From Candidatus Poribacteria bacterium (GTDB lineage Bacteria > Poribacteria > WGA-4E > WGA-3G), in NCBI GenBank assembly GCA_963665235.2, contig CAXXLX010000001.1:1504001-1568000 (forward strand): a DNA stretch of 64,000 bases. The letters are read 5' to 3'. The notes beneath the pieces were generated by a model. The model saw nothing but the letters and a program-made list of their open reading frames with translations, was not told where the DNA came from and made no database searches. Each line of letters starts with the position of its first letter. Position 1 is the stretch's first letter. The position numbers and the translations under genes are program-made. Shown one piece after another: positions 22,236-62,308 of this stretch.

Positions 22236-23719
22236 CTAAACGTGCTCAAAGGTTTTGGGTTTTAATTCTACTGCCCTGTTATAGTCCTTGATGGCTCTAT
22301 CCAGCTCGCCTTTTTCATGGTAAGCCGTGCCGCGATTGTAATACGCTTCAACAAAATTTGGTTTTAGTTCAATCGCTATGTCATAATCTTTAAGGGCGCG
22401 GTTATAATCTCCTTTGTCGCGGTAAGCAGCACCGCGATTGCTATACGGCGCGGGATAATCATTTTTTAGCTCTATTGCTTTGGTGCAGTCTTCTATAGCT
22501 AAATCATGGTCGCCCCTGACACGATAAACAGCCCCGCGATTGTTATAGGCAAAGGCATAGTCTGGTTTGAGCGCAATCGCTTTATTAAAATCTTTGATAG
22601 CAAGTTCGAGCTCACCCCTTTCTCCGTAATCAATACCGCGATTGTTATAAAAAGTAGGCTCGTTTGGAGCTAATTCTATCGCTCGGTTATGGTCTTTGAT
22701 TGCGCTATCAACCCTATTTTTTTCCCGATACACGTTACCGCGATTATTATAAGCCCCTGCATAATCAGGTTTCATACAGATTGCCAAATCATACGCAGAA
22801 ATAGCCGATTCTCCGTTACCCCTTTCAGAAAGGAGATAGCCAATGGCAAAGAACGCTGCTGCAGCAACATCCGTCTCGATTTGTTCTACTGTCGCAGCAC
22901 AGGGTGTAATGCCCTCGCTCTCCAATTGAGCCCATACCTCCTCCACTAATTCCGGAAAAAGAGCTTCTATCTTTGGAAAGTGCTGCTCCTGATATGCCTT
23001 AATAAGTATACTGACCCATGTCATGACTGCCGATAAGGGATGATTTTCATCTCCACCGACACCATAGACCAAATCATCTAATACTGCTGCTAGGTGTTGG
23101 TACTCGATTTCTGTCACCGTGACACAGCTAAGATCTTCATTCCGATTTGCGATACCGGTGAATAGGTCCAGTAAACTTATACCATTTCTAATTGAAAATG
23201 TTTCTTTATTGTAGCATAAACTTCCAGTTTGTGTGCTTTATCGTAGCATAAACTTCCAGTTTGTGTGCTTTATCGTAGCATAAACTTCCAGTTTGTGTGC
23301 TTTATCGTAGCATAAACTTCCAGTTTGTGTGTGTAGCATAAACTTCCAGTTTGTGTTTTTGTAGCATAAACTTCCAGTTTGTGTGCTTTATCGTAGCATA
23401 AACTTCCAGTTTGTGTGCTTTATCGTAGCATAAACTTCCAGTTTGTGTGCTTTATCGTAGCATAAACTTCCAGTTTGTGTCCTCCGTTCTCCGTTTCATT
23501 TCCAACAACCGGTAATGATAGAATAATTAATAAAAATGGTATTACAAGCCATTTCACTTCACTTTCCGTATCGGCTGCAGTATCAACAAATTCGGGCTGT
23601 AAAGGTTGTTCATGGGCAAGTAATACCTGTTTTTTGGGGCTATGTTCGCCTGAGAATATGGGCTCAAAAGGCGTGAACGTTGACAATATATTTGGCAGAG
23701 ACTGCGTTCCGACTAGCAT
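22236..23719 (-). pseudogene. TPR protein with HigA-like N-terminal segment, split by MITE-A
   Basis: Removing 23180-23541 plus one TSD joins ..KWLV to SLLDLF.. in frame (373 codons); AYNNRG repeats; VGGDENHPL motif. Confidence 0.8.
23180..23541 (+). mobile_element. MITE-A copy 1 (TACCATTT TIR, TTA TSD, 9 repeat cores)
   Basis: TTA-TACCATTTCTAATTGAAAATG ... TAATAAAAATGGTA-TTA; main unit GTAGCATAAACTTCCAGTTTGTGTGCTTTATC. Confidence 0.92.
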
Positions 23720-23725
23720 GATTTG

Positions 23726-24637
23726 TTAACTCAACAGTGCCTTAAGCGCAGCATCAATCGTCGGATAGCGAAATTCGTAACCGCTCGCCTCAGTTTTCTC
23801 CGGTAGAACATTCTGGCTCAACATAACGAAATCCGCGAACTCCCCCATCATCAACTTCAAACCGAACGCTGGCACCGGAAACAGCGTCGGCCGCCGAAGC
23901 ACAGCCCCGAGTGTCTTTGTGAACTTAATATTTCTGACCGGTGTAGGCGCAGTCGCGTTCAACGCACCGCTTACCTCGTCATTTTCCAAAGCGTGCAGGA
24001 TAATACCCACCACGTCATCAACATGAATCCATGACATCCACTGTGTACCGCTGCCAAGTTTACCGCCGACTCCCATTTTAAAAGGCGGCAGAACTTGATT
24101 CAAAAGTCCCCCCCCTAAGCCGAGCACAAGTCCGATACGAACCGTGACGACCCGGGTGCCAAATTCGTTCGCTTTTAGTGCTTCGGTTTCCCATTCTTGG
24201 CAGGTTTCCGCGAGAAAATCGTTTCCGACAGGGGATTCCTCCGTGAAGGTATCCTCGCCGCTGTCGCCATAGTAGCCGATTGCCGAGGCACAGACGAGCA
24301 CATCCGGTTTAGTATCAGCCTCAGCGAACGAGGCAACGAGGTTACGGGTAGAGAGCACACGACTGTCGCGTATCCGCCGTTTTTTTTCTGCGTTCCATCT
24401 CCCTGCAATCGCTTCACCTGCCAGATGAATCACCGCTTGCACGTCTGATGTCGCTTCTGTGGGAAGCTGCTCCGTTTCAGGGCTCCACCGGTGGAAGGTT
24501 TCTGCTGAATTTAATGTCGTTTGTGCGCGGTCGGGGTTTCGAGACAAGACATGTACTGCATTTCCCTTTTCGTTGAGGGCATCACAGACACGAGTGCCGA
24601 TGAAACCTGTTCCCCCTGTGACCAATACATTTGCCAT
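23726..24637 (-). CDS. TIGR01777/YfcH-like NAD-dependent epimerase family protein
   Basis: VTGGTGFIG, HLAGE, ASAIGYYG, SWIHVDD. Confidence 0.9.
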   Translation of the reverse strand: MANVLVTGGTGFIGTRVCDALNEKGNAVHVLSRNPDRAQTTLNSAETFHRWSPETEQLPTEATSDVQAVIHLAGEAIAGRWNAEKKRRIRDSRVLSTRNLVASFAEADTKPDVLVCASAIGYYGDSGEDTFTEESPVGNDFLAETCQEWETEALKANEFGTRVVTVRIGLVLGLGGGLLNQVLPPFKMGVGGKLGSGTQWMSWIHVDDVVGIILHALENDEVSGALNATAPTPVRNIKFTKTLGAVLRRPTLFPVPAFGLKLMMGEFADFVMLSQNVLPEKTEASGYEFRYPTIDAALKALLS

Positions 24638-24657
24638 CGTTTTCCTCCATGATATTT

Positions 24658-25386
24658 CTATTTTGACAGTTCAGCGATAGCCGCTTCTAAGTGTCGATAA
24701 TCATCAATGACAGCATCGCTGAGTGTATCGTCTACCTCTGCATTATTGAATCCTGTGAAACGTATCGCCTTCATCCGTGCATTTTTTGCCCCGACGATAT
24801 CGGTTCGGTAAATATCACCGATATGGAGTGCTTCTGTCGGTTCAACGTTCAGCTCCTTTAAGGTGGAATGGAATTGCACCACTTCAGGCTTTGTGTGTTG
24901 CGTTTCATCGGAAAAAGTGAACGTTGTGAAGAATTGCAGGATACCGTCGCGTGCCATAAGTTTTCTTACAAAAGTGCCGGGTGTCAAGGCGGAGTCGGAG
25001 ATAATTCCCAGCGGATAGTTTTCGCTGAGCCGTGCCAACACCGGCTTAATATGCGGGATGAGGACTGGCGGGGACGCTAAGAACGCATTGCCAAGACACA
25101 CAACTAACGCATCGATATCGGTGTCCTGAAGGGGAAGTCCGAGTGTCTTAGCCAACCCTCTCATGCAGGTCTCCACCGAAATACCTTTATGTTCATACCA
25201 ATGAGACACCGTCAACTGATACGCCTCCTCAAGTCCATTTTCCACTTCGGTTAGTAGACAATCATATCCACGGTGCGTTAAGTAGGTATGGCACTGTTCT
25301 ATGCGTATAGCTTGACGTTTATGCCAATTCTCGTGAGAATCCGCATAAAGTGTTTGCCAAAAATCAAATGTAATTGCTTTAAGCAT
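24658..25386 (-). CDS. HAD family hydrolase
   Basis: FDFWQTL, KPE, HIGD...DIVGA. Confidence 0.88.
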   Translation of the reverse strand: MLKAITFDFWQTLYADSHENWHKRQAIRIEQCHTYLTHRGYDCLLTEVENGLEEAYQLTVSHWYEHKGISVETCMRGLAKTLGLPLQDTDIDALVVCLGNAFLASPPVLIPHIKPVLARLSENYPLGIISDSALTPGTFVRKLMARDGILQFFTTFTFSDETQHTKPEVVQFHSTLKELNVEPTEALHIGDIYRTDIVGAKNARMKAIRFTGFNNAEVDDTLSDAVIDDYRHLEAAIAELSK

Positions 25387-26121
25387 TGAATTTCCTATTT
25401 TCGCAAAGATTTCAAGTAGCTTGTCTTTATGTCGAGCTGTTCTGTTTAATTTTAGTTAATTTGTGTTCAAATGTCAAGAAATATATAAAGAGGGGTGTAA
25501 AGTTTTCGTACAAGTTGTTCCGTATTAGCCCAGTATGGGCATTATGTTTATAGCGTGACTTCTGCAGCGGAAACGAACAGGAAAATAGACCTAAATCTTA
25601 GAATCAATCGTCTTTATGTGCTTGTTGAGATGATTTCAGACGCTTTTTTCGTCTTTATGCGCCGTTTTGTGTCAGAAATCGGGGTTAGAAACCCCTTGCA
25701 GAAGAAGTCGAAACCATTAATTCGACTTGTGGGTAACAGCTAGCTTCTTAGCCCAGTATGGGCGTTATGTTTATAGAAGCAGGGGTTCTGCCTCTCCGCA
25801 AACAGGACTCTAATCAAAAAACTTGGATTGTTACACATCTTAAAATCCGCGAAATCCGTGTAATCCGCGATAATCCGCGATTTAGACAGAAGAGAAACGG
25901 TGAAAAATCCGGTAACCCCGAGCATGCATTTTTTTTGAAGAAAATCTGGACAGTTCGCAACTAATAGAACAGAGAAAAGCTGGCGTGAAATCCGCTAGCG
26001 CCCCGGAATAGCTGCAGGTTGCTTTGCAAAAAACAGCGACAAATTTGAAAAATGACTTTTTTTAAGGTATAATATTAACAGCCGATATGTTGACGCGTCA
26101 AAAATTTGTCCGGGAGGCATT

Positions 26122-27627
26122 ATGTTGCGTTGGAATCGTAGAATTACGCCGAGCTATCCGACCGGTCGGTTAATGCTTATCTTTTTTAGTGTCGGTGTAT
26201 GTATATTGATATTTGTGTTTGCTTACTATACACGCCAAATTTCTCAATTGAACGCCGATATAGAGGCACAGATACAAATTTTTGTGAACCTCGCTGTTGA
26301 ATTGCCGAGCATTGAGGACCGTGCGTTGCAAGAACGGCTGCTTCGGGTGATGAGACAGGAGCTCTTAGCGGAGGGGAGGTCGCGACGGTTTGCGTTCATC
26401 ATCACAGATGCGGATGGAAACGTGGAAATTTCACAGGGAATTGATACAAAATTGGACGCGAAAGTCAACGAAAATGACAGAATTCCGTTAACCCATGATG
26501 AGAAGGAGCTATTGAACACAACATTGGCGCGGATGAAAAAGAAAAATCAGCGTCGGAAAATACCGTTCCTTCGGGAAGACAGGAAGATTACAGGATACTT
26601 CTACTACGGGGATGTGGCACCGAGTGAAATGGCACAACTGCCTTTTGCAATAACCGATACGACGAAGACACCCCAGAAATGGCAGATGTGGGACGATGTT
26701 ATCACAGCAGAGACAGCGACTCCACAAGAACGGGAGCGTGCAGAAATTTTCGTCAAAAACACCGCCGCGTTCTCTGCAATTCAAACCACACCTGCTTGGC
26801 ATGAAGGGTATTTCTACTACGAAATAAAATCCTATTACGGATTATTGGTGACCCCGTTCGTATTATTTATCGTTTTGCTTAGTTTTGGGTTCGTCTGTTT
26901 TCTTATCTATTCACGGATAAAGTCTTATGAACATGCTGCAATTTGGGGCGGCTTAGCCAAAGAAACCGCGCATCAACTCGGCACCCCCATCTCTGCACTC
27001 CTCGCTTGGACAGAGCTGCTGGATGAACGGAGCCAGGAGACAGGGGATACAATTCTCGCGGAGCTCTCCAAAAATATGCAGAGCGACCTGAAACAGTTAC
27101 AGAAAACGACCGCACGATTCGGAATGATTGGTACACAGCCAGCAAAAACAGAGATACGTTTAGAAGATGTGCTCGCGGAAGTTCTAACCTATTTCGAGAA
27201 GCGGCTCCCACAAGTCAGCCGCAGTGTTGATATTCGCATCACACCCAGCGAGATACCACCGATTTTGGCAAACGCACATCTGCTACAGTGGGTGCTCGAA
27301 AATCTCATCCGCAATTCGCTGGACGCGATGGATAAACCAGAAGGGCACATTGAGATAAAACCGCGTTATGATGAACGGCGAAAACACGTCATCATTCAGT
27401 ATACTGACAACGGAAGTGGTATCCCTCGCGAAAATCAACGCATTATTTTTGAACCCGGGATGACTACCAAAGCACACGGATGGGGACTCGGTTTGACAGT
27501 AGTACAACGAATTATTAAGGAGTATCATCACGGAAACATACGGTTGGTCGAAAGTAATCCAGCAGGAACAACTTTTGAAATCCAACTCCCTTGCACCGCA
27601 ACAGAAGTAGCTCGCAAGTCCGTATGA
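26122..27627 (+). CDS. Sensor histidine kinase
   Basis: Two TM helices; ETAHQLGTP H-box; ENLIRNSLDA, DNGSGI, GWGLGL. Confidence 0.92.
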   Translation: MLRWNRRITPSYPTGRLMLIFFSVGVCILIFVFAYYTRQISQLNADIEAQIQIFVNLAVELPSIEDRALQERLLRVMRQELLAEGRSRRFAFIITDADGNVEISQGIDTKLDAKVNENDRIPLTHDEKELLNTTLARMKKKNQRRKIPFLREDRKITGYFYYGDVAPSEMAQLPFAITDTTKTPQKWQMWDDVITAETATPQERERAEIFVKNTAAFSAIQTTPAWHEGYFYYEIKSYYGLLVTPFVLFIVLLSFGFVCFLIYSRIKSYEHAAIWGGLAKETAHQLGTPISALLAWTELLDERSQETGDTILAELSKNMQSDLKQLQKTTARFGMIGTQPAKTEIRLEDVLAEVLTYFEKRLPQVSRSVDIRITPSEIPPILANAHLLQWVLENLIRNSLDAMDKPEGHIEIKPRYDERRKHVIIQYTDNGSGIPRENQRIIFEPGMTTKAHGWGLGLTVVQRIIKEYHHGNIRLVESNPAGTTFEIQLPCTATEVARKSV

Positions 27628-27646
27628 TACCCCTTGGGGAACAGAT

Positions 27647-29218
27647 ATGCCAAAATCATATAACATTCTGTGGATAGACGATGAGATAGAAGCACTGCGG
27701 CCACACAGACACTTTTTAGAAAACCGCGGCTACCATGTCACACCCGCTACCAACGGTGATGATGGAATAGCACTGCTAAAGCAGCCTGACGTACAATACG
27801 ATGTCATTTTGCTTGACCAGGTTATGCCCGGAAAAGATGGTATGGCAACCCTTGACGGTATTCGCACTATCGACCGCCAGGTCCCCGTTATTCTTGTAAC
27901 ACAGACTAGTGATGACCGGTTTATCGATGTCGCCCTCGGCAAACAGGTGACGGATTTTCTCGTAAAACCTATCGGTGTTACACAGATTGCTTCAACCCTC
28001 AAACGGGTGCTTGAACAACAACAGATAGTAGAAACCCAAATACCGGGCCGCTACACGAACGATTTTAACACCATCAGGTCCCTGAAAGAGGCACAACCTA
28101 CGTGGCAAGACTGGCTTAACATTTACATCAAATTACTAGAATGGGATTTGGTTTCCGAGCGGCTGGTTGAGCAGGGATTAGAAGAAACACATTTGGCACA
28201 GAAAAAGGAGTGCAATACCGAATTCTCCGATTTTGTCGAAGCGAACTATCCGGACTGGGTGGCAGGCAGTGAAGATGCCCCCCCGCTTTCAGTCGGCGTA
28301 CTAGACCGGCATGTTGTCCCTTTACTACAGAAAGGGGTACCTGTCTACTTTATCGTTGTAGACTGTTTTCGACTCGATCATTGGATGGCGATAGAACCGT
28401 TGTTGTATCCCTATTTTTCTATTGACCGGCAGTACAATTTCTCTATTTTGCCGAGTGCCACGATGTACTCACGGAACGCGCTATTTAGTGGGCTCTATCC
28501 GGCAGAATTGGCAAAGGATTACCCCGAATATTGGCAGGAACGGTCAGAAGGTGACACCAGCACAAACCGATACGAACGGCAGATGCTTGAGGCGTTTTTA
28601 CAAAGACGAGGCATCACACTGAAACCGGGGATACAATACTTCAAAATTTTTGATACGCGGGGCGGAAATGAATACAAAAGACGTGTCGCAGCTGCACCGA
28701 AAATTAGTCTCGCGACACTCGTTGTTAACTTCATAGACATATTAACGCATCAGCGGTCACAATCGGAGGTGTTGCAACAGCTTGCCCCAGATGAGCCAGC
28801 TTTTCGGGCATTGGCGAGTTCTTGGTTTTCGCATTCTATCCTGTTTGACATTCTGCGCCTTATTGCTGCTCAGGGGGCTTTCGTCGTGCTCACAACGGAC
28901 CACGGCTCCGTATTCTGTAACAGGGCCACCCGTGCTTACGGCAATCGCGATACCACTACAAGTCTCCGGTTCAAAATCGGCAATAATCTGGCATGTGATG
29001 AGAACGAAGCGGTGTATATCCCGAACCCGCTTAAATATCAGTTGCCCGCCGAAACGGCGAGCAAAGATTATATTCTCGCAAAAGACGACTTCTATTTCGT
29101 CTATCCAAACGACTTTTATAAGTACAAGCGGCAGTTTCAGGGCGGATTTCAACACGGCGGCATTTCAATGGGAGAATTAATAACGCCTGTCGTGACACTA
29201 ACCCCACGCAATAGGTAG
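27647..29218 (+). CDS. Response regulator with PglZ/alkaline-phosphatase domain (PorX-like)
   Basis: ILWIDDE receiver; VVDCFRLDHW, LPSATMYSRNALFSG, TTDHG, FQHGGISMGE. Confidence 0.88.
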   Translation: MPKSYNILWIDDEIEALRPHRHFLENRGYHVTPATNGDDGIALLKQPDVQYDVILLDQVMPGKDGMATLDGIRTIDRQVPVILVTQTSDDRFIDVALGKQVTDFLVKPIGVTQIASTLKRVLEQQQIVETQIPGRYTNDFNTIRSLKEAQPTWQDWLNIYIKLLEWDLVSERLVEQGLEETHLAQKKECNTEFSDFVEANYPDWVAGSEDAPPLSVGVLDRHVVPLLQKGVPVYFIVVDCFRLDHWMAIEPLLYPYFSIDRQYNFSILPSATMYSRNALFSGLYPAELAKDYPEYWQERSEGDTSTNRYERQMLEAFLQRRGITLKPGIQYFKIFDTRGGNEYKRRVAAAPKISLATLVVNFIDILTHQRSQSEVLQQLAPDEPAFRALASSWFSHSILFDILRLIAAQGAFVVLTTDHGSVFCNRATRAYGNRDTTTSLRFKIGNNLACDENEAVYIPNPLKYQLPAETASKDYILAKDDFYFVYPNDFYKYKRQFQGGFQHGGISMGELITPVVTLTPRNR

Positions 29219-34010: not shown

Positions 34011-34445
34011 ACGTGAGTTTGAAAAATTTTCCCCTCGTATGAGGAGCGGGAAACCGTTTGCCCGAATACTGGGCGATAAGTCGGCTTCTTAGGGACGATA
34101 TGTTTATAGGCATCTGGGTTTCTGCCCGCCTCTTAGTGGTTCACTCGGTAAATTCTTATGTCTTATGAGTTTCCAGATAATAGCCGGGACGGACTACTGT
34201 GCTTGCGACGATGTCGTGTCCATATTACCATACAAACTTAGCGAGCAGACCACTTAGTGGTTCACTCGGTAAATTCTTATGTCTTATGAGTTTCCAGATA
34301 ATAGCCGGGACGGACTGCCGTGCTTGCGACGATGTCGTGTCCATATTACTATACAAACTTAGCGAGCAGACCACTTAGTCCTGTAGGGACGATATATTTA
34401 TAGAAAACCGTTTCCGCCCCGATTCTTAGTCCCGTAGGGACGATA
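34011..34445. mobile_element. MITE-B copy interrupted by nested insertions
   Basis: Collinear with reverse complement of 39235-39422 once 34136-34377 is removed. Confidence 0.7.
34136..34374. mobile_element. Tandem dimer of a 118-bp MITE (GTGGT..ACCAC ends, TTA TSD)
   Basis: TTA-[34136-34253]-TTA-[34257-34374]-TTA; imperfect 19-bp TIR; three substitutions seen between units. Confidence 0.8.
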
Positions 34446-34447
34446 TA

Positions 34448-34685: not shown

Positions 34686-34690
34686 TATTT

Positions 34691-36099
34691 ATACTAAAGT
34701 TTGGACAATATTCTAGATTTCAAGCAGCCTTGTCAAACGGCAGGGCGTTATCTTGCGTTTTCTCGGTCAGAATATTCTGCGAGTTTGTTTTATCTTCGGA
34801 ACTCGCAGAATATCGGCGGCACAAAATCTGTGCTTGAAGATAAGCAACCCGCAGCCCTTGTGTGAGTTTCTTCGGTTTATACCAATGAATGCCTAGTTTT
34901 TCGCAGACCTGCTCAACACTGATACGTTTTTCTGTCGTTTCCGGCATAGCAAAGATTAGCTTTGTTAGAGACGCTGCAACGAAACTCAGTTGTCCGAAGC
35001 GATTGATGCTTTTGCGCGACTTGACCTGATACCCGCTGAAACCGAAGTGTTGCTTTGCGTCACGAAAGGCTGTCTCTATCTCCCATCTGCGGCGATAGTA
35101 TTCAACAATCTGTGGTATCTCAAGCGTCAAATCTGTCGTCCAGACACAGAAATACCGGTAAGGTTTTGACTGTCTCGTCTCGGTCTCGTTCGGATGACAA
35201 CTAGTCGGACATCTACCGGACACATTTTTGCACTATCTGTGATGCCACTTGATAGTCTTTGCCCATTAGGGAGACCACTTTATACCGCAAGCGCCGGATG
35301 TTTAGACGCGGTCCGTATTTCTTCGGACGCCCGGGGCTCCGACGCTTCGGGGCTTTAGGGCGGCGGTAAAACACCGCATTTGACTTCGCACGACACAAGA
35401 TATGGTGTTTGAATGCCAAAACCGTCTCAAACACTTTGCGACGGGCGAACCCTCTATCAAAGATAATCAGTCCCGCAGGTATCTTTGATACGATACGCTT
35501 CAATACCGCATCCCCTTTGTCACGGACTGTCTTCGGAACAACCAGCCTGACCCACACAGGAAATAGTAAACATTGCGTCGCAGTCTCACACAATAAACCC
35601 AAAGCCGCAAACTCATGACCGAAGTGAAACTTAGATTGATTCACACGCCCCCTCTGATACTTGAAGTTGCGAAAAAAATGTAGACCATATTGACCCTTGC
35701 CGGTTTTCACAGCAGACGTGTGGTCATAAACATAAACCCAATTCGGAAATACCTGCTGTAGCTTTTCAACGAGCTTCACCGCAACAGCATCCGCACTCCA
35801 AACACCCCGGGACAGAAACTTCGGTAAAGACCAATACTTCGTCCCGAAGACACTTGATTGATAAAGACCCGTCAGGGTGCCACCCTGGCTATTGGAAGCA
35901 ATAAAGCCAAAAATCATCGCTTGGAAAAGCGCAAAGTTTTGTGGGTTGAATAAACAACTAAAATGTGATAGAATATCTTGTAAGCAGAAAAGAAGGTTCA
36001 TTTTTATTTTCCTTTCGAAAATTTAATTTATTTTAAAATGATACCTACTTTTTTGCTTCTTGTCCATCTTAATTCTTAAAATTGTCCAAAGTTTAGTAT
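34691..36099 (-). mobile_element. IS701/IS4-like insertion sequence
   Basis: 19-bp TIR ATACTAAA(G/C)TTTGGACAAT at both ends enclosing a DDE transposase gene. Confidence 0.82.
34720..36001 (-). pseudogene. Frameshifted DDE transposase
   Basis: YDHT, FDRGF, GRPKKYG, YRRRWEIETAFRDAKQ; apparently two indels at ~35170-35230 with CPVDVRLVVIRTRP in the third frame. Confidence 0.85.
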
Positions 36100-42808: not shown

Positions 42809-42907
42809 TAAGTACAAAAATTTTACGCACCCAATCAGACGGGTGTGTAAAGTTTTTGTACGGCTGCGATATTTTTTATGAAGAAAAATCAAACAGTTCG
42901 CAACTAA

Positions 42908-43275
42908 TACCATTTCTAATTGAAAATGTCTCTTGATTGTAGCATAAACTTCCAGTTTGTGCGCTTTATCGTAGCATAAACTTCCAGTTTGTGCTTTATT
43001 GTAGCATAAACTTCCAGTTTGTGCGCTTTATTGTAGCATAAACTTCCAGTTTGTGCGCTTTATCGTAGCATAAACTTTTAGTTTGTGCGCTTTATTGTAG
43101 CATAAACTTTTAGTTTGTGCGCTTTATCGTAGCATAAACTTCCAGTTTGTGCGCTTTATCGTAGCATAAACTTCCAGTTTGTGCTTTATTGTAGCATAAA
43201 CTTCCAGTTTGGGTCCTCCGTTCTCCGTTTCATTTCTAACAACCGGTAATGATAGAATAATTAATAAAAATGGTA
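42908..43275 (+). mobile_element. MITE-A copy 2 (TAA TSD, 9 cores)
   Basis: TAA-TACCATTT...AAATGGTA-TAA; linker mostly CGCTTTAT(C/T); similar empty site CAGTTCGCAACTAATAGAACAGAGAA at 25951. Confidence 0.92.
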
Positions 43276-43395
43276 TAACATAACAGAGAACCAAAACATT
43301 TTTCGGAGGAAAGCGGCACGGTTTGCAACTCACCTGATTAGCCACCGATAGCGAAAGTGTGACATTTCATTTTTTTGAAATCGTCCAAGGTGGGT

Positions 43396-43895: not shown

Positions 43896-44499
43896 CGGTT
43901 TTGTACAAAAACTTTACACACCCCAATCAGACAAGACGATTGACATTTAAGCCAACACAGGGTAAAATAAACGTAACGTTATAAGGAGAACTCCTTCATG
44001 AAAAACACTTTGTACTCCATTTTGACAGCACTGTTTGTAGCGGCAACATTTACGCCTATCAGCCTCGCCCAATATTCCCCGGGATGGGATTCCCCTGATG
44101 GCGCGAACGCGCGCATCAGAGGAGGTAAGCTCCGCATCTATGATGTAAAGTATTCACCGGATAGCACACGGGTCGCGGTGTCCGGTAGCTTCGGTGTCCG
44201 GCTCTACGATGTTCAGACAGGTGAAGAACAGGTTCAATTCATAGGGCACCGAGGTAAGAAGGTCTGGAGCGTGGCGTTTAGTCCAGATGGAAAAAGGCTT
44301 GTGAGCGGTGGACAGGATAATACCATTCGGTTGTGGGATGTGAACATAGGAAAACACATCCGAACAATCACAGAACGGGCCTGGAGCGTAGCATTTAGTC
44401 CAGATGGCACGACGATAGCAAGTGGGGATTGGATTCAGACCATTAGTCTATGGGATGTGAACACAGGGAAACGTCTATTTACACTCCCTGAAAATATAA

Positions 44500-45007
44500 T
44501 ACCATTTTTATTAATTATTCTATCATTACCGGTTGTTAGCAATGAAACGGAGAACGGAAGACCCAAACTGGAAGTTTATGCTACGATAAAGGGCACAAAC
44601 TGGAAGTTTATGCTACGATAAAGGGCACAAACTGGAAGTTTATGCTACGATAAAGGGCACAAAGAGGCACAATCTGGAAGTTTATGCTAACGAGTTGTGC
44701 TAAATGACTTTTTGTACAACATTATTTCACACAAGAACGTTTTGTCCGTGCTTCTCATTGGTTTGGACGCTCTTCAGTCCCAGTATTCGGGCAAGCAGCC
44801 CGCTCTTTAAGGACGATATCTTTATAGCTAAGCGTTCCACCTTTCTCTTTAGTCCCATAGGGACGATATGTTTGTATGACAACATCCAATATCTGTGAGA
44901 AAAACAAAAACAACCAGTTAACTGGCACAAGTCATTATGCTACAATAAAGAGGCACAATCTGGAAGATTATGCTACAATAAAGAGACATTTTCAATTAGA
45001 AATGGTA
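44500..45007 (-). mobile_element. MITE-A copy 3 (inverted, TAA TSD, 5 cores, nested insertion)
   Basis: TAA-TACCATTTTTATTAATT ... TTCAATTAGAAATGGTA-TAA. Confidence 0.92.
44690..44934. mobile_element. 245-bp element nested in a MITE-A repeat core
   Basis: TTATGCTA duplicated on both sides; imperfect ends CGAGTTGTGC / GCACAAGTCA; internal TTAGTCCCATAGGGACGATAT repeat. Confidence 0.7.
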
Positions 45008-45560
45008 TAACTAAGCTCTGGAGCCTAGCGTTTAGCCCGGATGGAAGGATGCTTGCAAGTTGTGGCTTCGAGTACAATACCGGCAGTGGGGACAATACCA
45101 TTCAGTTGTGGGATGTGAAAACGGGAAAACACATCCGAACAATCAGAGAAGAGGCAGTTGGGAATGGCATCACAGACGTGGCGTTTAGTCCGGATGGAAA
45201 GACTATAGCTAGTGCCAGCTCGTCTATCCTTCGGTTGTGGGATGTGAAAACAGGAAAACACATCCGGACATTTACAGAGGAGGCGGCTGGTGTCTGGAGC
45301 GTGGCGTTTAGTCCGGATGGAAAGACTATAGCTAGTGCCCATATCGGTGCTATCGGTCTGTGGGATGTGGAAACAGGAAAATTCCTACGAACAATCAGCG
45401 GACAGGGTCATGTCGGAAGAGTGGTGGCGTTTAGTCCGGATGGAAAGACTATCGCAAGTGGGGGTTGGCGTGGGGCATATCTGTGGGATGCAAACACAGG
45501 ACAACGCCTCCGAACACTCATAAAGGATTATTGACACAGCATATTGCAAGGAGAAATATC

Positions 45561-55152: not shown

Positions 55153-55178
55153 GGATTTTTTTCTCCGATATATAGTTT

Positions 55179-55361: not shown

Positions 55362-57563
<2,202 letters not shown>

Positions 57564-57666
57564 CTAGTGCCTGTCAAATTTCATGCTTGTATAGTAAAAA
57601 GGATAACAGATTTAGGAAAAAAATGTCAAGTCAAAAATCGGTTCACCTTCCACTTTTTTATATTCC

Positions 57667-58680
57667 TCAAGGTGCCATATAACGTTCACCGTACGTGAGC
57701 ATGATCCGATTTTGAATAAATTCGTATTTCGCAGGTGAACAGGCATGCAGTTTATCCGGATACACCAGGTAATATCCGAGACTTTCCGCCATATCCTCGT
57801 TAGGGTTTTTGTCATGAGCGTAATCTGTCACAAATTCTTTCCGGGGTTTCGTTGTTGACCATCCCGAATCGCTATCCGGGTTTTCATACCATCCGCCAAG
57901 TTGCATCCAGTCCTGTTTAAGTTGTTCGGGAAAAAGATACGCCCACAAAAAGTGCGCCTTTTCGTGTGCAATTAAACGGCGCGTATCGTTTGAATCGTGC
58001 CCCCCGAAGATAGAGTCGGCAAGCTCAATATACCCCTCACTCGTCCAGGCTACGCCCGGTGCTGTGATATTAGCGGATTTACGGACGATATACTTCAATT
58101 GCGGTATTTTATGTAAGGCTTTCGGGAACTCTTCAAGTATAGAGATAAGCGTTATCAGGTCTTCGTTTTCAAATTCCGAAAAATTTTCCGCCGCCTCCTT
58201 TATGGCATGGGCAGGAACATCTATATGAATGCCGTACCGCTCTTGCAAGATTAATTTTAGGGCATCTCTATTCGTCCCATTTTCTGTCAAGAATTGAACG
58301 ATGGCATAATATAGGCGTTTGTCCGGGCCTGATACGGTTTGTGCCCCTTCAATTGGAAAAATATCTGTCCGTATCGTAACGAAATTTAGACCATTTTGAA
58401 ATTTAATTTCAAAGTCATTCGGCAAATCCTCGCGACTTGAGTGCCATATAGAGGGGGCTATATTGAGTTCCTGCAATTGCCCTATACTGCCAAAGATTTT
58501 TAAAAGTTTCTGGGCATGCTCTGTGGACCAGGTAGAATCCAGATGGACATCGTACTTTTCTTGTAGTTGCGAAATCGGGTCAGCTTTTCGTGTTTTAAAA
58601 TGTTTTTGAAAATAGGCGGTATAGCAGCCTATTTGCAAAATGAACACGGCAAAGAGAACGATAATCACAGGTTTTTTCAC
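57667..58680 (-). CDS. Lipoprotein with HEXXH zinc-peptidase-like motif
   Basis: QIGC lipobox; IAHEKAH; DYA...PNEDMAES. Confidence 0.7.
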   Translation of the reverse strand: MKKPVIIVLFAVFILQIGCYTAYFQKHFKTRKADPISQLQEKYDVHLDSTWSTEHAQKLLKIFGSIGQLQELNIAPSIWHSSREDLPNDFEIKFQNGLNFVTIRTDIFPIEGAQTVSGPDKRLYYAIVQFLTENGTNRDALKLILQERYGIHIDVPAHAIKEAAENFSEFENEDLITLISILEEFPKALHKIPQLKYIVRKSANITAPGVAWTSEGYIELADSIFGGHDSNDTRRLIAHEKAHFLWAYLFPEQLKQDWMQLGGWYENPDSDSGWSTTKPRKEFVTDYAHDKNPNEDMAESLGYYLVYPDKLHACSPAKYEFIQNRIMLTYGERYMAP

Positions 58681-58683
58681 ACG

Positions 58684-61101
58684 CTACTCCTTTTTACCTT
58701 GCTGCAACCGAAACGGCTCGCTTTTGACAATTTCTGTAATGAGCACAGTGCTGCTATACTCTTTCGCCTCGAGTTCATCGACAATCCGCTCGACCGTCGG
58801 CCGGTCGTAATATGCTAATCCTCTGCCGAGGGCGTAAGTTAGCATTTTCTCGGTTAGACATTTTGCAAAGTGCTGCTTTCTATCTTTGAGAATCTGTTTT
58901 AGGTCGGTTATACCCTGAAATGATGTGCCATCTGGCAGTTCTCCAGTTGTATCGAGTAGGAGCTCCCCCTCCTTTGTTCGGAATGCCCCGATAGCGTTGT
59001 AGTTTTCAAGTGCGAATCCAATCGGGTCCATTTTGGCGTGGCAGTTCGCACATGCGGGGTCTTTTCGATGTTGTTCGAGTCGTTGCCGCAAGGTCTTTCC
59101 GCTGATTGCCTCATGTTCCTCCGCTAATTCTGGGACGTTCGGGGGTGGAAGTGGCGGCGGTGAACCGAGTATCTGTTCAAGCACCCAACGACCACGTTTG
59201 ACAGGTGAGGTCCGGGTCGGATTGGAGGTTACTGTGAGCACACTCCCGTGCGTTAAGATACCGCCGCGTGTTGCATTTCCTAACGCAACCCGCTGAAAAC
59301 CGTTCCCCTGGACTTTGTTCCCATTTATGTCCTTGTAGATGCCGTAATGCCTTGCTAAGGGTTGATTGAGAAAGGTGTAGTCTGCATCGAGCAGCGTAAG
59401 AATGCTCCCGTTTCCACGAAAGATTGAATCTAAAAAGAGTTCGGTTTCCTTCAACATCGCTTGACGCAGTTTCGGGGTGAAAGTTGGAAACTGTTGAAGG
59501 TCGGGGGCAACCGTTGTAAGACGTTGAATCTGTAACCACTGCGTTCCGAAGTTACGTGCTAATTCTGTCGCTTTGGGGTCCGCGAGCATCCGCTTAACTT
59601 GCGCCTCAAGGTTGACAGTCAGCTGCTTTTCCTCAGCGAGTGCGAAGAGTTCATCGTCCGGCATACTGCTCCACAAAAAGTAGGAGAGCCGGGAGGCGAG
59701 CTGAAATTCATCAAGCGGGTAAGGATTACGGCCTTGGGCTCGGTCATCTAATTCCCATCGAAAGAGAAATTTAGGGGAGCAGAGAACGATTTTAAGTGCT
59801 TGTTGAATCCCTGCTTCCCACTTTTCACCATCGGCCTGGACGCTCTCTACAAATTGTGCAAGTTTTTCCACTTCAGCTTCACTGGGCGGCCTGCGATATG
59901 CGCGGCGAAGCAGACGCGTCAACACTTCACGGGTCTGTGCTGCCTGTGGGATATTCGGCGTACATGCCAAAATTTTGCGTTGAGAGACGGGACGGGTGTC
60001 TAGCGGCCCCTCTGACCATAGCAAGCGAATCATGAGCTTGGCTTCGGGTTCACCTTGTGCAGGTTTAACCATCGCTATTCCTGCCTTTTCGACGTTAGGG
60101 ATACGGCTGACAAGGGTTTCAATCGTCTGCGGTTTTTTCGGGTCGCGGGCGGTAATCTCGAACGTCTCCAAAATTTTGATTCTGTTATCTGCTGTGGGGT
60201 CAACGCCGACAAGCTGTGCAAGTTCATCAGGTGTAGAAACCGCTGCTAACGTTTTTCCCTGAACGAATAGTGCCGCCTTCACAGGCGTTTGACGCTCCGT
60301 TTCGGCATAAAGGGTTGCCCGGTATAAAATCTCTATATCGGGGAGAAACCTGAGATGCGCTGCACCTGTCGTAAACGGTCCTGTTTTCCAAGGCTCTTCG
60401 GCACCTGGGTCAAGCAGGCGAAAACGGTTCGGGGGTACGTCTCTGTGACGGGGGTCAAGCCGTTGTCCTCTCTGATACCGCCTAGCTGGCGGCGGCGGCT
60501 CCACAAGGATAACCCGTTCAGCGATTGCCTCCGCTGCTTCTAAATAACGTTCCATCAACAGCGGGGACATCGTCAGCACATCGCCGATGTTATCAAACCC
60601 ATGCCCTATATCGTCAGCAGGAAAATTTACAGTCGGATCGAAATCAACGTAGAGTAGGTCTCGGACGGTGTTTTTGTATTCAACTTTATTGAGCCGGCGT
60701 ACCGTAACTCGCCCCGGTTCAGGTTTAGCTGTCCGCGCTGCGTTTTCAAAAATCGCTTCAACATGCCCGACAAACGTTTCGCGCTCTGCCATAGAGGGTT
60801 GTGTGCTATCTGATGGCGGCATCTGATTTGTCGTTAGCATATCCAAAACGTTTTCCCAAATATCGTGATGCTTGATTATGGAGAGGTCATCCGGAAATGC
60901 GTCAAGTGAAAGTTCAGCGGCGGGCTCCTCACCGGCGTGGCATCCGAAGCAGTACTGTTTCAAAAAAGGAACGTCTACTTTCGCAAAGTCGGGGGGCTCC
61001 CGACCTGATAGGTTGGGGACAGATGCAATAAACACCAGCATCAGGAGCAGACAGAGATGTTGTGGGATGTAATTACGTGCGGTCATCGTTATTTTTCCCA
61101 A
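58684..61101 (-). CDS. DUF1592/PSD-domain cytochrome c protein (start may be 61086)
   Basis: CFGCH, RRLNKVEY.NTVRDL, LASRLSYFLW, TSPVKRG, CANCH. Confidence 0.9.
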   Translation of the reverse strand: MGKITMTARNYIPQHLCLLLMLVFIASVPNLSGREPPDFAKVDVPFLKQYCFGCHAGEEPAAELSLDAFPDDLSIIKHHDIWENVLDMLTTNQMPPSDSTQPSMAERETFVGHVEAIFENAARTAKPEPGRVTVRRLNKVEYKNTVRDLLYVDFDPTVNFPADDIGHGFDNIGDVLTMSPLLMERYLEAAEAIAERVILVEPPPPARRYQRGQRLDPRHRDVPPNRFRLLDPGAEEPWKTGPFTTGAAHLRFLPDIEILYRATLYAETERQTPVKAALFVQGKTLAAVSTPDELAQLVGVDPTADNRIKILETFEITARDPKKPQTIETLVSRIPNVEKAGIAMVKPAQGEPEAKLMIRLLWSEGPLDTRPVSQRKILACTPNIPQAAQTREVLTRLLRRAYRRPPSEAEVEKLAQFVESVQADGEKWEAGIQQALKIVLCSPKFLFRWELDDRAQGRNPYPLDEFQLASRLSYFLWSSMPDDELFALAEEKQLTVNLEAQVKRMLADPKATELARNFGTQWLQIQRLTTVAPDLQQFPTFTPKLRQAMLKETELFLDSIFRGNGSILTLLDADYTFLNQPLARHYGIYKDINGNKVQGNGFQRVALGNATRGGILTHGSVLTVTSNPTRTSPVKRGRWVLEQILGSPPPLPPPNVPELAEEHEAISGKTLRQRLEQHRKDPACANCHAKMDPIGFALENYNAIGAFRTKEGELLLDTTGELPDGTSFQGITDLKQILKDRKQHFAKCLTEKMLTYALGRGLAYYDRPTVERIVDELEAKEYSSTVLITEIVKSEPFRLQQGKKE

Positions 61102-61936
61102 GCTGCAGAGCGTTGGGGTTTTTGCTAATGTTGTGTTTTTTAGGATTACATTTTAAAATGATACCACAGAATCTTGCGAAAGTCAAGTGAAAATTTGGGG
61201 GTTAGAGTGAGATGTTAAAGTTTTTGTCACATGGATAGGTGGAAGGGTGGAAGATTGGAAGAGGGGAAGCGAAAAAAATTGTCTGAATTACGGATTAGCG
61301 CGGAAAACGCATAAAATGAAAAAAATCGCAAAAAAATTTGACATTTATGATTTGACATTTATGCAAATCTGTGGTACACTTAATGACATAAAACAAACGC
61401 GATTCGACCTTGAGATGTTGTGATGCTAAGCAGGTTTTTGACCTGCGCCAGAGACCTCTTGCCCACGGTTTCCAACAGCCGCTTTGGCAAAGAGCAAAGA
61501 GGCGAACAACAAGATGTTGTGATGCTAAGCGATTTTTTGACCTGCGCCAGAGCCTTCTTGCCAACAGCCAATAGCCAACAGCCAATAGCCAATGACACAT
61601 GTGCTTTCCCGTTTGAAGGGAATGTGAAATGGCGAATGGCGAATGGCGAATGGCAAATAGCAAGAAAACCCTCCTACCAAACAGGCGGGTGTTGTCCAAG
61701 TTCGCGATACTTTCGATTGGAATGATAGCAACGGGTAAAGTTTTACAACAAACCCTCTTGCCAATAGCCAATTGCTAACTGCTAATAGCCAATACCACTT
61801 GTGCTTTCCCGTTTGAAGGGAATGCGAAATCGCGAATGGCGATTAGCAAATAGCAAGAAAACCCCTGGGAAGTAGAGGCGTGCTGTAAAAGTTCGCGCTA
61901 TTTTCGCTTGGAAGGATAGGAGGGGTTATATTGTTA

Positions 61937-62308
61937 TACCATTTCTAATTGAAAATGTCTCTTTGTAGTAGCATAAACTTCCAGTTTGTGCACTTCTTCG
62001 TAGCATAAACTTCCAGTTTGTGCACTTCTTCGTAGCATAAACTTCCAGTTTGTGCACTTCTTCGTAGCATAAACTTCCAGTTTGTGCACTTCTTCGTAGC
62101 ATAAACTTCCAGTTTGTGCACTTCTTCGTAGCATAAACTTCCAGTTTGTGCACTTCTTCGTAGCATAAACTTCCAGTTTGTGCACTTCTTCGTAGCATAA
62201 ACTTCCAGTTTGTGCACTTCTTCGTAGCATAAACTTTTAGTTTGGGTCTTCCGTTCTCCGTTTCATTTCTAACAACCGGTAATGATAGAATAATTAATAA
62301 AAATGGTA
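61937..62308 (+). mobile_element. MITE-A copy 4 (TTA TSD, 9 cores)
   Basis: TTA-TACCATTT...AAATGGTA-TTA; eight identical units GTAGCATAAACTTCCAGTTTGTGCACTTCTTC plus terminal core. Confidence 0.92.

What the first reader, a model, noticed from the sequence alone, without database searches (positions are those of the whole stretch)
23180..62308. MITE-A: a transposon shell carrying nine-unit REP arrays with a copy-specific linker
Seen: four copies (23180-23541, 42908-43275, 44500-45007 inverted, 61937-62308) with TACCATTT TIRs, TTA/TAA target duplication and near-identical flanks around an array of GTAG-CATAAAC-TTCCA-GTTTGTG hairpins. The three uninterrupted copies each have exactly nine cores (362-372 bp), yet the dominant linker is copy-specific: TGCTTTATC, CGCTTTATY, CACTTCTTC (CCCTTTATC in copy 3). 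Known: GTAG at the foot of a hairpin marks REPs handled by HUH RAYT/TnpA-REP enzymes; TWA duplication is typical of IS5/PIF-Harbinger-type DDE elements. Inference: each array is rebuilt or homogenised from one monomer up to a constrained length and then moved by a DDE transposase, i.e. a two-enzyme composite system; neither enzyme is encoded in this window.
Basis: partly seen in the sequence, partly recalled or inferred. Interest (0 to 1): 0.85.

Follow-up and report, generated by a model that had tools for sequence, protein, structure and literature searches.

The report
Hairpin-array MITE, unit number not fixed
The four repeats are real copies of a small non-coding jumping element from a sponge-symbiont genome whose internal hairpin array varies freely in length, so the proposed nine-unit rule does not hold and the element resembles known modular bacterial repeats.

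Summary
All four copies, the TACCATTT inverted ends, the TTA/TAA duplications and the GTAG-footed hairpin arrays are at the stated coordinates.

The interpretation mostly fails.
- **Unit number.** The genome, a Candidatus Poribacteria assembly, holds 143 paired copies. The 137 copies of 900 bp or less carry 1 to 26 units with no peak at nine: 8 of 137.
- **Linkers.** They are alike within a copy (58% identical pairs against 2.8% between copies). But 22 of 41 linker types recur in several copies and travel with SNPs in the arms, so they mark lineages, not single copies.
- **Target duplication.** Paralogous empty sites show a 3-bp TWA duplication.
- **Transposase.** The autonomous parent, found in a relative, is a 1143-bp IS630-family element, not IS5/Harbinger. 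This genome holds none.
- **RAYT.** One exists, but it and 29 homologues are flanked by a different GTAG hairpin.
- **Other arrays.** Three further hairpin repeat groups form similar arrays.

Best reading: a MITE with a minisatellite that grows and shrinks in place, like pneumococcal BOX or BrickBuilt. The scan noted copy 3 before on this same DNA.

The parts
23180..23541 (+). MITE-A copy 1. Left arm of 31 nt, 9 hairpin units (23211-23479), right arm of 62 nt. TSD TTA at 23177-23179 and 23542-23544.
   Evidence: The 150-bp higher-order period is 100% identical. A sibling with the same arm SNPs but only 2 units lies at G000:C2:859278.
42908..43275 (+). MITE-A copy 2. 9 units (42939-43213) with mixed linkers CGCTTTATC, CGCTTTATT and CTTTATT. 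TSD TAA.
   Evidence: It sits at a recurrent insertion site inside another dispersed repeat. Uninterrupted paralogues of that repeat carry a single TAA.
44500..45007 (-). MITE-A copy 3. 5 recognisable units plus a 263-bp internal insert built of another hairpin repeat. TSD TAA. It is inserted in a WD40-repeat gene.
   Evidence: Two near-identical siblings with the same insert but 10 and 5 units lie at C1:2290536 and C2:659921. Removing the element and one TAA in silico restores one open WD40 frame.
61937..62308 (+). MITE-A copy 4. 9 units (61968-62246), all eight linkers CACTTCTTC. TSD TTA.
   Evidence: Both flank-to-end junctions are seen in contigs of 4 public runs of one study, but no contig spans the array.
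16980..17143 (-). A different MITE-like shell (ends TATAACCTAAGTTGC ... GCAACTTGGGTTAATATA). It carries one unit of the compensatory core variant GTAGCATAATCTTCCAGATTGTG.
   Evidence: Positions 10 and 18 co-vary genome-wide: A-T in 1136 units, T-A in 126, unpaired in 6 of 1268.
62502..62901 (-). Array of 10 identical 40-bp units of a second GTAG hairpin (REP-B, GTAGGAGCGTGCTGTGCACGCGA). This is the type that flanks the genome's RAYT gene.
   Evidence: RAYT locus. There are 27 such arrays genome-wide, each with its own period of 28-67 bp.

Best explanation
MITE-A is a non-autonomous derivative of an IS630-family insertion sequence. It carries a GTAG-footed 23-nt hairpin as internal cargo.

**Movement.** It moves by cut-and-paste into T-W-A sites and duplicates 3 bp. 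The basic form is about 112 bp with one hairpin.

**Array behaviour.** In this genome's lineage the segment 'hairpin plus 4-12 nt pyrimidine-rich linker' behaves as a minisatellite. Blocks of one or a few units are duplicated or lost in place. I infer this happens by replication slippage or unequal recombination, helped by the hairpin. Each array therefore drifts towards uniformity while its length wanders between 1 and about 26 units.

**Linkers.** When an element transposes it takes its current array along, so the linker type is a lineage marker shared by sister copies that then diverge in unit number. Nine units in three neighbouring copies is most likely coincidence.

Shown: copy census, TSD, empty sites, linker and arm-SNP co-inheritance, an IS630 parent in a relative, and no cognate transposase in this assembly.

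Inferred: the slippage or recombination mechanism, and the neutrality of the arrays.
For: **Census.** 313 end matches give 143 pairs and 27 unpaired ends. TSDs are TAA/TAA in 64 and TTA/TTA in 55 of 143.

**Empty sites.** Paralogous empty sites carry a single TAA or TTA. Excising copy 3 in silico restores a WD40 open frame.

**Unit number.** In the 137 elements of 900 bp or less it runs from 1 to 26: 20 elements with 1 unit, 13 with 2, 12 with 3, 13 with 4, 17 with 5, 10 with 6, 10 with 7, 7 with 8, 8 with 9, 5 with 10, 9 with 11, and a tail. The median is 5.

**Linkers.**
- Within-copy identity is 0.58 and adjacent-unit identity 0.69, against 0.028 between copies.
- There are 41 dominant types over 117 elements, and 22 are shared.
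- Linker type tracks arm SNPs. All 6 TTCTTTATC copies share a right-arm C. 6 of 7 CGTTTTATC copies share the left-arm end GTA.
- Within a type, unit number varies, for example 3-7 or 2-11.

**Block duplication.** Alternating two-linker arrays, a three-linker period and a 150-bp period point to block duplication. The copy 3 siblings share a 263-266 bp insert and differ only in unit number.

**Other hairpin repeats.** The same behaviour is seen in other hairpin repeats. Of 197 arrays (period 20-70, at least 3.5 copies), 116 are this core, 27 REP-B, 23 a family without a GTAG foot, 3 other GTAGG hairpins and 28 other.

**Parent element.**
- Relative G024 holds three 1143-bp copies that differ by 1-2 nt, with ends TACCATTT(T/C)TAATTGA. 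Two of the three have direct TAA flanks.
- Two ORFs joined at an A9 run match NF033545 'IS630 family transposase' at positions 6-122 and 116-298. Pfam gives HTH_32 and DDE_3.
- Its last 45 nt or so resemble the MITE-A right arm by eye; no alignment was run.

**Context.** 136 of 137 elements lie outside ORFs of 150 aa or more. Orientation against co-directional neighbouring genes is 40 the same and 44 opposite.
Against: - Slippage alone does not explain why GTAG is kept at 98-99% at each position, or why the T7-G21 wobble is nearly invariant (1253 of 1268). The wobble makes the hairpin stronger on one strand: -3.0 against -1.7 kcal/mol as ssDNA.
- In the complete relative G024 most elements have one hairpin. 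Of the 37 plus/minus pairs I could read from 100 listed rows, 31 are 112-122 bp long; 39 rows were not listed. So some factor specific to this lineage drives the arrays, and I did not identify it.
- Three of the 8 nine-unit elements lie in this 39-kb stretch. The chance that three random copies share any one number is about 0.009.
- No cognate transposase was found in this assembly, which is 92.6% complete. ORF B has only 32% identity to another IS630 type, and ORF A has no hit. Yet sister copies are nearly identical, so what moved them recently is open.
- Array lengths were not verified by reads.
Confidence: 0.7

Rival explanations
1. Two-enzyme composite. The hairpin is a REP handled by an HUH (RAYT-type) enzyme, which inserts it into IS630-derived shells and amplifies it in place by cutting at the GTAG foot. 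The DDE transposase then moves the shell.
For: - The GTAG foot and a strand-asymmetric hairpin are conserved.
- The genome has one RAYT: NF047646 at 136 bits against a cut-off of 80. Its own REP-B forms equally uniform head-to-tail arrays on both sides of the gene and at 27 sites, each with its own linker.
- A relative holds a TATAGTG...CACTATA shell with an inverted pair of RAYT-type GTAGGAGCGATCTC hairpins, nested in a TACCATTT element.
- The same A core sits in several different shells, and as inverted doublets in 6 of 72 loci from other Poribacteria.
- Di Nocera et al. 2013 (PMC3733652, passages read) report GTAG dimers inside TATAGGA... palindromes in Anabaena variabilis, and REPs reiterated in tandem with flanking DNA.
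Against: - 0 of 30 RAYT loci (this genome plus 29 others) hold the A core within 1.5 kb. All but one of the 30 carry GTAGGAG-type hairpins.
- The nearest Y1 gene to any A core in this genome is 2 kb or more away.
- A hairpin family without a GTAG foot forms 23 similar arrays.
- Multi-unit block periods and broken units do not look site-specific.
- Only the 30 best RAYT loci were looked at. Weaker paralogues were not.
Confidence: 0.14
2. The arrays are kept by the host for a function, such as a protein-binding platform, transcript stabiliser or terminator, or small-RNA source. Their length would then be under selection.
For: - The stem is maintained by a compensatory change: A-T in 1136 units, T-A in 126.
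- The core is conserved across many Poribacteria assemblies.
- Elements are enriched between divergent genes: 34 of 137 against 409 of 3615 intergenic gaps in the background.
Against: - There is no orientation bias against neighbouring genes: 40 the same, 44 opposite.
- The hairpin is weak at -3 kcal/mol.
- No Rfam family reaches threshold in the window.
- Unit number is unconstrained.
- Copy 3 interrupts a gene.
- No RNA data were available.
Confidence: 0.08
3. One reading: arrays are rebuilt from one monomer up to a constrained nine-unit length and then moved by an IS5/PIF-Harbinger-type DDE enzyme.
For: - Three uninterrupted window copies have nine cores.
- The TSD is TWA.
- 36 of 87 arrays with three or more regular linkers are fully uniform.
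Against: - Only 8 of 137 elements have nine units.
- Linker types are shared between copies and tied to arm SNPs.
- The parent element is IS630-family.
- PF13359, PF13586 and PF13340 are not found in this genome. The PF01609 elements there have other ends, with 9-10-bp and 6-bp duplications.
Confidence: 0.02
4. The array lengths are assembly artefacts, either expansions or collapses.
For: No read or contig spanning an array could be laid. Perfect 32-bp repeats are hard to assemble from short reads.
Against: - The assembly has 4 contigs for 5.3 Mb.
- Arrays contain irregular linkers, partial units and nested elements that are reproduced in sister copies.
- Arrays are at most about 0.9 kb long.
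Confidence: 0.05

Closest known systems
Pneumococcal BOX elements (boxA-(boxB)n-boxC). Croucher et al. 2011, PMC3049150, passages read.
   Same: A shell of two end modules encloses a variable number of tandem internal modules. The internal module folds on its own. Size varies more the longer the array. In S. suis two different shells enclose the same boxB module, as several shells here enclose the same core.
   Different: - The module here is a 23-nt GTAG-footed hairpin plus a 4-12 nt linker, not a boxB module.
- The partner is an IS630-family element, whereas BOX ends are compared with ISSpn2.
- A clear 3-bp TWA duplication is shown here.
BrickBuilt MITE of Porphyromonas gingivalis. Klein et al. 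2015, PMC4596501, abstract and passages read.
   Same: A MITE with leader, tail and an internal 23-nt tandem repeat present 1 to 22.8 times. It is always intergenic, holds no transposase, and shows nested MITE-in-MITE cases.
   Different: - BrickBuilt has 19 copies, ends like IS5-family elements, no spacers between repeats and inconsistent TSDs.
- MITE-A has about 145 copies, IS630-type ends, linkers between hairpins and a consistent TWA TSD.
GTAG-tagged REPs and their RAYT enzymes. Di Nocera et al. 2013, PMC3733652, passages read.
   Same: A terminal GTAG at the foot of a short palindrome. High copy number and extragenic position. [quoted passage not shown] Some GTAG dimers sit inside longer palindromic shells.
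   Different: No RAYT flanked by this core was found (0 of 30 loci). The stem is AT-rich and only 7-8 bp. In this genome the units are almost always inside a DDE-type shell.
IS630/Tc1-mariner family, for example ISY100. Feng and Colloms 2007, PMC2170065, abstract and passages read.
   Same: The parent element has an HTH domain plus a DDE_3 catalytic domain, short inverted ends and a size of about 1.1 kb. It gives rise to MITEs.
   Different: The paper describes insertion into TA with a 2-bp duplication. Here the duplication is 3 bp, T-W-A. Two other IS630 types in the same genome do make TA duplications.
Insertion sequences that target REPs. Tobes and Pareja 2006, PMC1525189, passages read.
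   Same: A second, 1239-bp IS630-family element of this genome sits in the loop of a GTAG hairpin in all 8 full or near-full copies.
   Different: The paper lists IS3, IS110, IS4, IS256 and IS5 as REP-targeting families. 'IS630' does not occur in its main text.

Membership tests
MITE (non-autonomous DDE transposon) | Terminal inverted repeats | tested here: met
   The ends are TACCATTTCTAATTGA and (reverse complement) TACCATTTTTATTAAT. There are 290 exact end matches to TWATACCATTTYTRW in this genome, and none to the pattern read backwards.
MITE (non-autonomous DDE transposon) | Target site duplication, with filled and empty sites | tested here: met
   119 of 143 pairs have direct TAA or TTA. 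Paralogous empty sites hold one copy. In-silico excision restores a WD40 frame.
MITE (non-autonomous DDE transposon) | Small, non-coding, and an autonomous element with the same ends exists | tested here: met
   Elements are 112-883 bp with no transposase of their own. A 1143-bp IS with the same ends occurs in relative G024. None was found in this genome.
   PF13359, PF13586 and PF13340 gave 0 matches in this genome. The PF01609 elements have other ends and 9-10-bp or 6-bp duplications. The element with matching ends is IS630-family.
IS630 / Tc1-mariner derivative | Partner transposase with HTH and DDE_3 domains (NF033545) | tested here: met
   ORF A matches NF033545 positions 6-122 (70.7 bits, a partial match). 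ORF B matches positions 116-298 (137.8 bits, cut-off 100). Pfam gives DDE_3 at 1.7e-21.
IS630 / Tc1-mariner derivative | TA target with 2-bp duplication | tested here: not met
   The middle base W is duplicated in direct order: 119 matched pairs against 8 mixed TWA pairs. Empty sites confirm it.
REP / REPIN of a RAYT system | GTAG at the foot of a short imperfect palindrome, high copy number, extragenic | tested here: met
   1268 units at up to 4 mismatches. G, T, A and G are kept in 1248, 1256, 1251 and 1241 of them. 136 of 137 elements lie outside long ORFs.
REP / REPIN of a RAYT system | A RAYT gene flanked by the same hairpin | tested here: not met
   The genome's RAYT is flanked by GTAGGAGCGTGC hairpins. 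0 of 30 RAYT loci from 30 genomes hold the A core. Only the 30 best-scoring loci were examined.
REP / REPIN of a RAYT system | Cleavage or binding by the HUH enzyme | not testable with these tools
   This needs a biochemical assay.
Modular MITE with internal minisatellite (BOX, BrickBuilt) | Leader-(module)n-tail, with n varying between loci | tested here: met
   A 31-nt left arm, 1-26 units and a 58-62-nt right arm.
Modular MITE with internal minisatellite (BOX, BrickBuilt) | n varies at the same locus between strains | not tested
   No second strain of this species was available, and contigs of public runs do not span the arrays.

The most novel reading that the evidence does not exclude
GTAG-footed hairpins of Poribacteria are substrates of HUH (RAYT-type) enzymes. 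They colonise the centres of IS630-derived MITE shells and are amplified there head-to-tail by the HUH enzyme. MITE-A would then be a true two-enzyme composite, with one selfish element hitch-hiking inside another. The array burst in this lineage would reflect HUH activity rather than passive slippage.
Probability: 0.12. Interest if true: 0.7.

Novelty: new member of a known kind. Interest (0 to 1): 0.3.

Why it matters
The striking part of the claim, a counted nine-unit array rebuilt per copy by a second enzyme, does not survive a genome-wide census. What remains is a well-documented case of a modular MITE with an internal minisatellite in an uncultivated sponge-symbiont phylum. Its value lies in side results that can be tested:
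- an IS630-family element that duplicates 3 bp (TWA) instead of TA
- one hairpin module shared by several MITE shells across the phylum
- a second IS630-type element that lands in hairpin loops
- a genome in which four hairpin repeat groups all form uniform tandem arrays

The arrays could serve as strain markers for Poribacteria in metagenomes.

Tried and rejected
**Reads across the arrays.** The four best-holding public runs (one study, possibly the source of the assembly) are kept as short contigs. None spans an array, so unit numbers stay unverified.

**Replication strand bias.** Cumulative GC skew on contig 1 is weak and noisy, and no origin or terminus could be placed. The regional runs of one orientation (for example 2 plus against 18 minus between 0.8 and 1.4 Mb) stay unexplained.

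**Transposase inside the shell.**
- The only ORF between TACCATTT ends in this genome belongs to a nested 1239-bp IS630-type element with its own ends (TGAAGATTAA...).
- It splits a hairpin loop and occurs in either orientation relative to the shell. I rejected it as the shell's own gene.
- Its duplication could not be resolved. The junctions fit a 1-bp duplication of the central loop base if the ends are ATGAAG...CTTCAT. One copy does not fit.

**Multi-copy ORFs of the genome.** They are TnpB, RRXRR (IscB-like), a DDE_5/DDE_Tnp_1 (IS4-like) element, IS630 types and a restriction-modification methylase. None has matching ends.

**Relatives.**
- 29 TACCATTT ends in five relatives were fetched with 3 kb each. 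None held a transposase, and one 2.7-kb candidate holds four tandem paralogous ORFs of 120-129 aa that lack transposase-like sequence.
- ISs 51-65% identical to the G024 ORF B were checked at five loci. In the three where the scan found an inverted-repeat pair, the ends are not TACCATTT. In the other two no pair was found.

**Other checks.**
- Y1 or IS630 proteins within 600 bp of 72 core loci of other genomes: no tblastn hit.
- Rfam: nothing at gathering threshold in the window.
- A literature search for a 3-bp duplication in the IS630 family found none. The search used the terms 'IS630 family', 'TA dinucleotide', '3-bp', 'target duplication' and 'MITE', and 7 papers were listed. That is no proof that it is unpublished. 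ISfinder could not be consulted. No supplementary files were read.
Full report
**1. Observation**

The four copies are at the stated coordinates. They have TACCATTT/AAATGGTA ends and direct TTA or TAA flanks. Their arms are near-identical: 31 nt on the left and 62 nt on the right. Between the arms lies an array of GTAGCATAAACTTCCAGTTTGTG units.

The core occurs 33 times in the window at up to 3 mismatches, against 0 in 100 shuffles. Tandem Repeats Finder reports 32-bp arrays of 9.0, 8.9 and 8.7 copies.

The window is G000:C1:1504001-1568000 of a 5.31-Mb, four-contig assembly with 47.6% G+C. Exact copies of the core were found in at least 72 loci, nearly all in records titled Candidatus Poribacteria. 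The organism is therefore a poribacterium, a sponge symbiont by my own knowledge of that group.

**2. Genome-wide census**

At up to 3 mismatches the genome holds 1251 cores in 220 clusters. At up to 4 mismatches it holds 1268.

BLAST with the two arms gave 313 end matches of 20 nt or more. These formed 143 left-right pairs and 27 unpaired ends. Six pairs longer than 900 bp are mis-pairings or carry nested elements. I left them out of the statistics, which leaves 137 elements totalling 40.5 kb, or 0.76% of the genome.

Unit number in the 137 elements:

| Units | 1 | 2 | 3 | 4 | 5 | 6 | 7 | 8 | 9 | 10 | 11 | 12 | 13 | 14 |
|---|---|---|---|---|---|---|---|---|---|---|---|---|---|---|
| Elements | 20 | 13 | 12 | 13 | 17 | 10 | 10 | 7 | 8 | 5 | 9 | 1 | 4 | 2 |

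Single elements have 15, 16, 21, 23, 25 and 26 units. The median is 5.

Three of the eight nine-unit elements lie in this window. The chance that three random copies share any one number is about 0.009. I treat this as coincidence, because the three belong to different arm and linker lineages, but it is not explained.

**3. Linkers**

In the 87 arrays with at least three regular linkers, two linkers of one copy are identical in 58% of pairs, and adjacent linkers in 69%. Linkers from different copies are identical in 2.8% of pairs. 36 of the 87 arrays are fully uniform.

The linkers are not copy-specific, however. 117 elements share 41 dominant linkers, and 22 of these recur in 2 to 11 elements whose unit numbers differ. 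Examples are CTCTTTATT with 2-7 units, CGTTTTATC with 3-7 and TGCTTTATC with 2-11.

Linker type goes with SNPs in the arms:
- All six TTCTTTATC copies carry the right-arm variant CATTTCCAAC.
- Six of seven CGTTTTATC copies have the left-arm end GTA.
- Five of nine CGTTCTT copies share three arm SNPs.
- Ten of the twenty single-unit elements share a distinct 58-nt right arm.

Window copy 1 has a sibling with the same arm SNPs and only two units (C2:859278). Copy 3 has two near-identical siblings with the same 263-266-bp insert and 10 and 5 units.

Arrays are thus carried along on transposition, and their length changes afterwards. Alternating two-linker arrays, a three-linker period (C1:819153) and the 150-bp period of copy 1 show duplication of multi-unit blocks. 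Broken units at irregular points look like slippage or deletion scars.

**4. Transposition**

Of the 143 pairs, 64 have TAA/TAA flanks and 55 have TTA/TTA. Eight have mixed TWA.

Many elements lie in other dispersed repeats whose uninterrupted paralogues carry a single TAA or TTA at the site. This shows a 3-bp duplication and excludes a TA reading. Copy 2 sits at such a recurrent site. Removing copy 3 and one TAA in silico yields one open WD40-repeat frame across the junction.

Elements avoid coding sequence. 136 of 137 are outside ORFs of 150 aa or more, while such ORFs cover about 82% of the genome. They show no orientation bias against co-directional neighbours, at 40 the same and 44 opposite.

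**5. The transposase**

In this genome no pair of TACCAT ends 600-4000 bp apart encloses a transposase of its own.

The ORF seen in four long 'elements' belongs to a 1239-bp IS630-family element with its own ends, TGAAGATTAA... (NF033545 at 176 bits; Pfam DDE_3 and HTH domains). It splits a hairpin loop and occurs in either orientation, so it is a nested guest.

Other candidates gave nothing:
- PF13359, PF13586 and PF13340 have no match.
- The PF01609 elements have other ends and 9-10-bp or 6-bp duplications.
- The two other IS630 types make TA duplications.
- The remaining multi-copy ORFs are TnpB, RRXRR proteins and others.

The end pattern TWATACCATTTYTRW is found in 56 of 61 sampled genomes of the same family. 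It occurs 290 times here and up to 315 times elsewhere.

In the complete genome G024, 100 of 139 matches were listed. Of the 37 plus/minus pairs I could read, 31 are 103-113 nt apart (elements of 112-122 bp), three are 211-498 apart, and three are exactly 1134 apart.

Those three are 1143-bp copies that differ by 1-2 nt:
- Their ends are TACCATTTTTAATTGAC and (reverse complement) TACCATTTCTAATTGA.
- The flanks are TAA/TAA in two and TAA/TTA in one.
- Two ORFs overlap at an A9 run. They match the N-terminal and C-terminal parts of the NCBIfam IS630 transposase model, and Pfam HTH_32 and DDE_3.
- The last 45 nt or so resemble the MITE-A right arm by eye; no alignment was run.
- The IS itself contains no GTAG hairpin.

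MITE-A is therefore an IS630-family derivative with the hairpin as cargo. Its 3-bp TWA duplication departs from the TA duplication described for the family (PMC2170065, passages).

Homologues of ORF B at E of 1e-50 or better occur in 18 of 61 sampled genomes and not in this one. tblastn finds only 32% identity to another IS630 type here. What mobilised the nearly identical sister copies in this lineage is open. The assembly is 92.6% complete.

**6. The RAYT question**

Pfam Y1_Tnp matches 13 places in the genome, and none lies within 2 kb of an A core.

One of them, G000:C1:831715-832188, is a RAYT of 157 aa (NF047646 at 136 bits, cut-off 80). It is flanked on one side by 5 units and on the other by at least 18 units of a different GTAG hairpin, GTAGGAGCGTGCTGTGCACGCGA, in inverted orientation. 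This REP-B forms the 10 x 40-bp array at window 62502-62901.

Homologues of the RAYT occur in 89 of 121 sampled Poribacteria genomes. In the 30 best loci all but one carry GTAGGAG-type hairpins, and none holds the A core. The defining link 'RAYT flanked by this hairpin' is thus not met. Weaker paralogues were not examined.

In favour of some HUH link:
- The GTAG foot is 98-99% conserved.
- Positions 10 and 18 of the core co-vary: A-T in 1136 units, T-A in 126, other in 6.
- An invariant T-G wobble makes the top strand fold better, at -3.0 against -1.7 kcal/mol.
- A relative holds an inverted pair of RAYT-type hairpins inside a TATAGTG shell.

**7. Arrays are general in this genome**

Of 197 non-overlapping arrays with period 20-70 and at least 3.5 copies:

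| Array type | Number |
|---|---|
| A core (110 canonical, 6 with a 6-nt loop) | 116 |
| REP-B, each with its own period of 28-67 bp and often 100% identical units | 27 |
| 50-bp family around GTCCC-TAC-GGGAC, without a GTAG foot | 23 |
| Other GTAGG hairpins | 3 |
| Other, mostly with periods divisible by three | 28 |

Tandem growth with an array-specific linker is therefore a property of hairpin repeats here in general. That favours a general replication or recombination process over an enzyme specific to GTAG. [quoted passage not shown]

**8. Comparison and verdict**

The architecture leader-(module)n-tail with variable n matches pneumococcal BOX elements (PMC3049150). It also matches the BrickBuilt MITE of P. 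gingivalis, which has a 23-nt repeat present 1 to 22.8 times (PMC4596501).

I file the finding as a new member of that kind. The nine-unit rule and the IS5/Harbinger assignment are refuted. The two-enzyme idea survives only as a minority reading, at about 0.12-0.14.

Interest is modest. The testable side results are the TWA-duplicating IS630 element, the shared hairpin module, and the loop-targeting IS630-type element. That family is not among the five that Tobes and Pareja list as REP-targeting (PMC1525189).

Array lengths remain unverified by reads.

Noticed in passing
G000:C1:1853471-1854709 (L001), with further copies at C1:737492, 1687074, 2925534, 3591522; C2:103866, 852877/854818; C4:10440: A 1239-bp IS630-family element (ends TGAAGATTAA...) sits in the loop of a GTAG hairpin in all 8 full or near-full copies. 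Seven are in the A core or its variant, and one is in a different hairpin (GTAGGCGCGCTTT...). The junctions read N-A|TGAAG...CTTCA|T-N. That fits a 1-bp duplication of the central loop base rather than TA. MITE-sized derivatives of it sit in hairpin loops in other Poribacteria genomes (L125, L132).
   Followed up: partly
G000:C1:831715-832188 (L093:816-1289, minus strand) and its flanks: A RAYT gene (157 aa, HUH motif HIH) flanked by inverted head-to-tail arrays of its REP. One side has 5 units of 41 bp, and the other has about 26 units of 34 bp. Paralogues occur in 89 of 121 sampled Poribacteria genomes, with up to 8 matches in one genome. The hairpin sequence changes with the RAYT lineage.
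   Followed up: partly
window 62502-62901: Ten perfectly identical 40-bp units of the REP-B hairpin, 190 bp downstream of MITE-A copy 4 and without any inverted-repeat shell.
   Followed up: partly
window 44691-44937 (inside copy 3): The 263-bp insert contains two units of the 50-bp 'TCTATAAA..ATCGTCCC-TA(C/T)-GGGAC' hairpin family, which forms 23 arrays elsewhere in the genome.
   Followed up: partly
window 42860-42907 and 43276-43340 (flanks of copy 2): Copy 2 lies in another dispersed repeat (...AAACAGTTCGCAACTAA|CATAACAGAGAACCAAAACATTTTT...). At least seven MITE-A copies of different lineages sit at the same TAA/TTA of that repeat, and more than ten paralogues are empty. It is an insertion hot spot.
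   Followed up: partly
window 43998-45534 and about 45100-45460; also 17858-18211: WD40-repeat genes with 123-126-bp tandem periods. One is interrupted by copy 3.
   Followed up: partly
window about 34981-35494; 34132-34379: A degraded DDE_Tnp_1 transposase remnant with internal stops, next to a 121-bp two-copy tandem repeat.
   Followed up: no
G000, genome-wide (for example C1:1197096-1198211, C1:1658558-1659676, C1:3599046-3600098; C1:4052083-4053288): About 18 copies of RRXRR-domain proteins with a PLMP-like N-terminus, in three families of 8, 6 and 4. They are possibly IscB-like, which is my recollection of that motif. There are also many TnpB (OrfB_IS605) genes, the largest family with 11 copies.
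   Followed up: no
G000:C1, 0.8-1.4 Mb: MITE-A copies are 2 plus against 18 minus in this stretch, though balanced overall on C1 (51 plus, 59 minus). GC skew is too weak to relate this to replication.
   Followed up: partly
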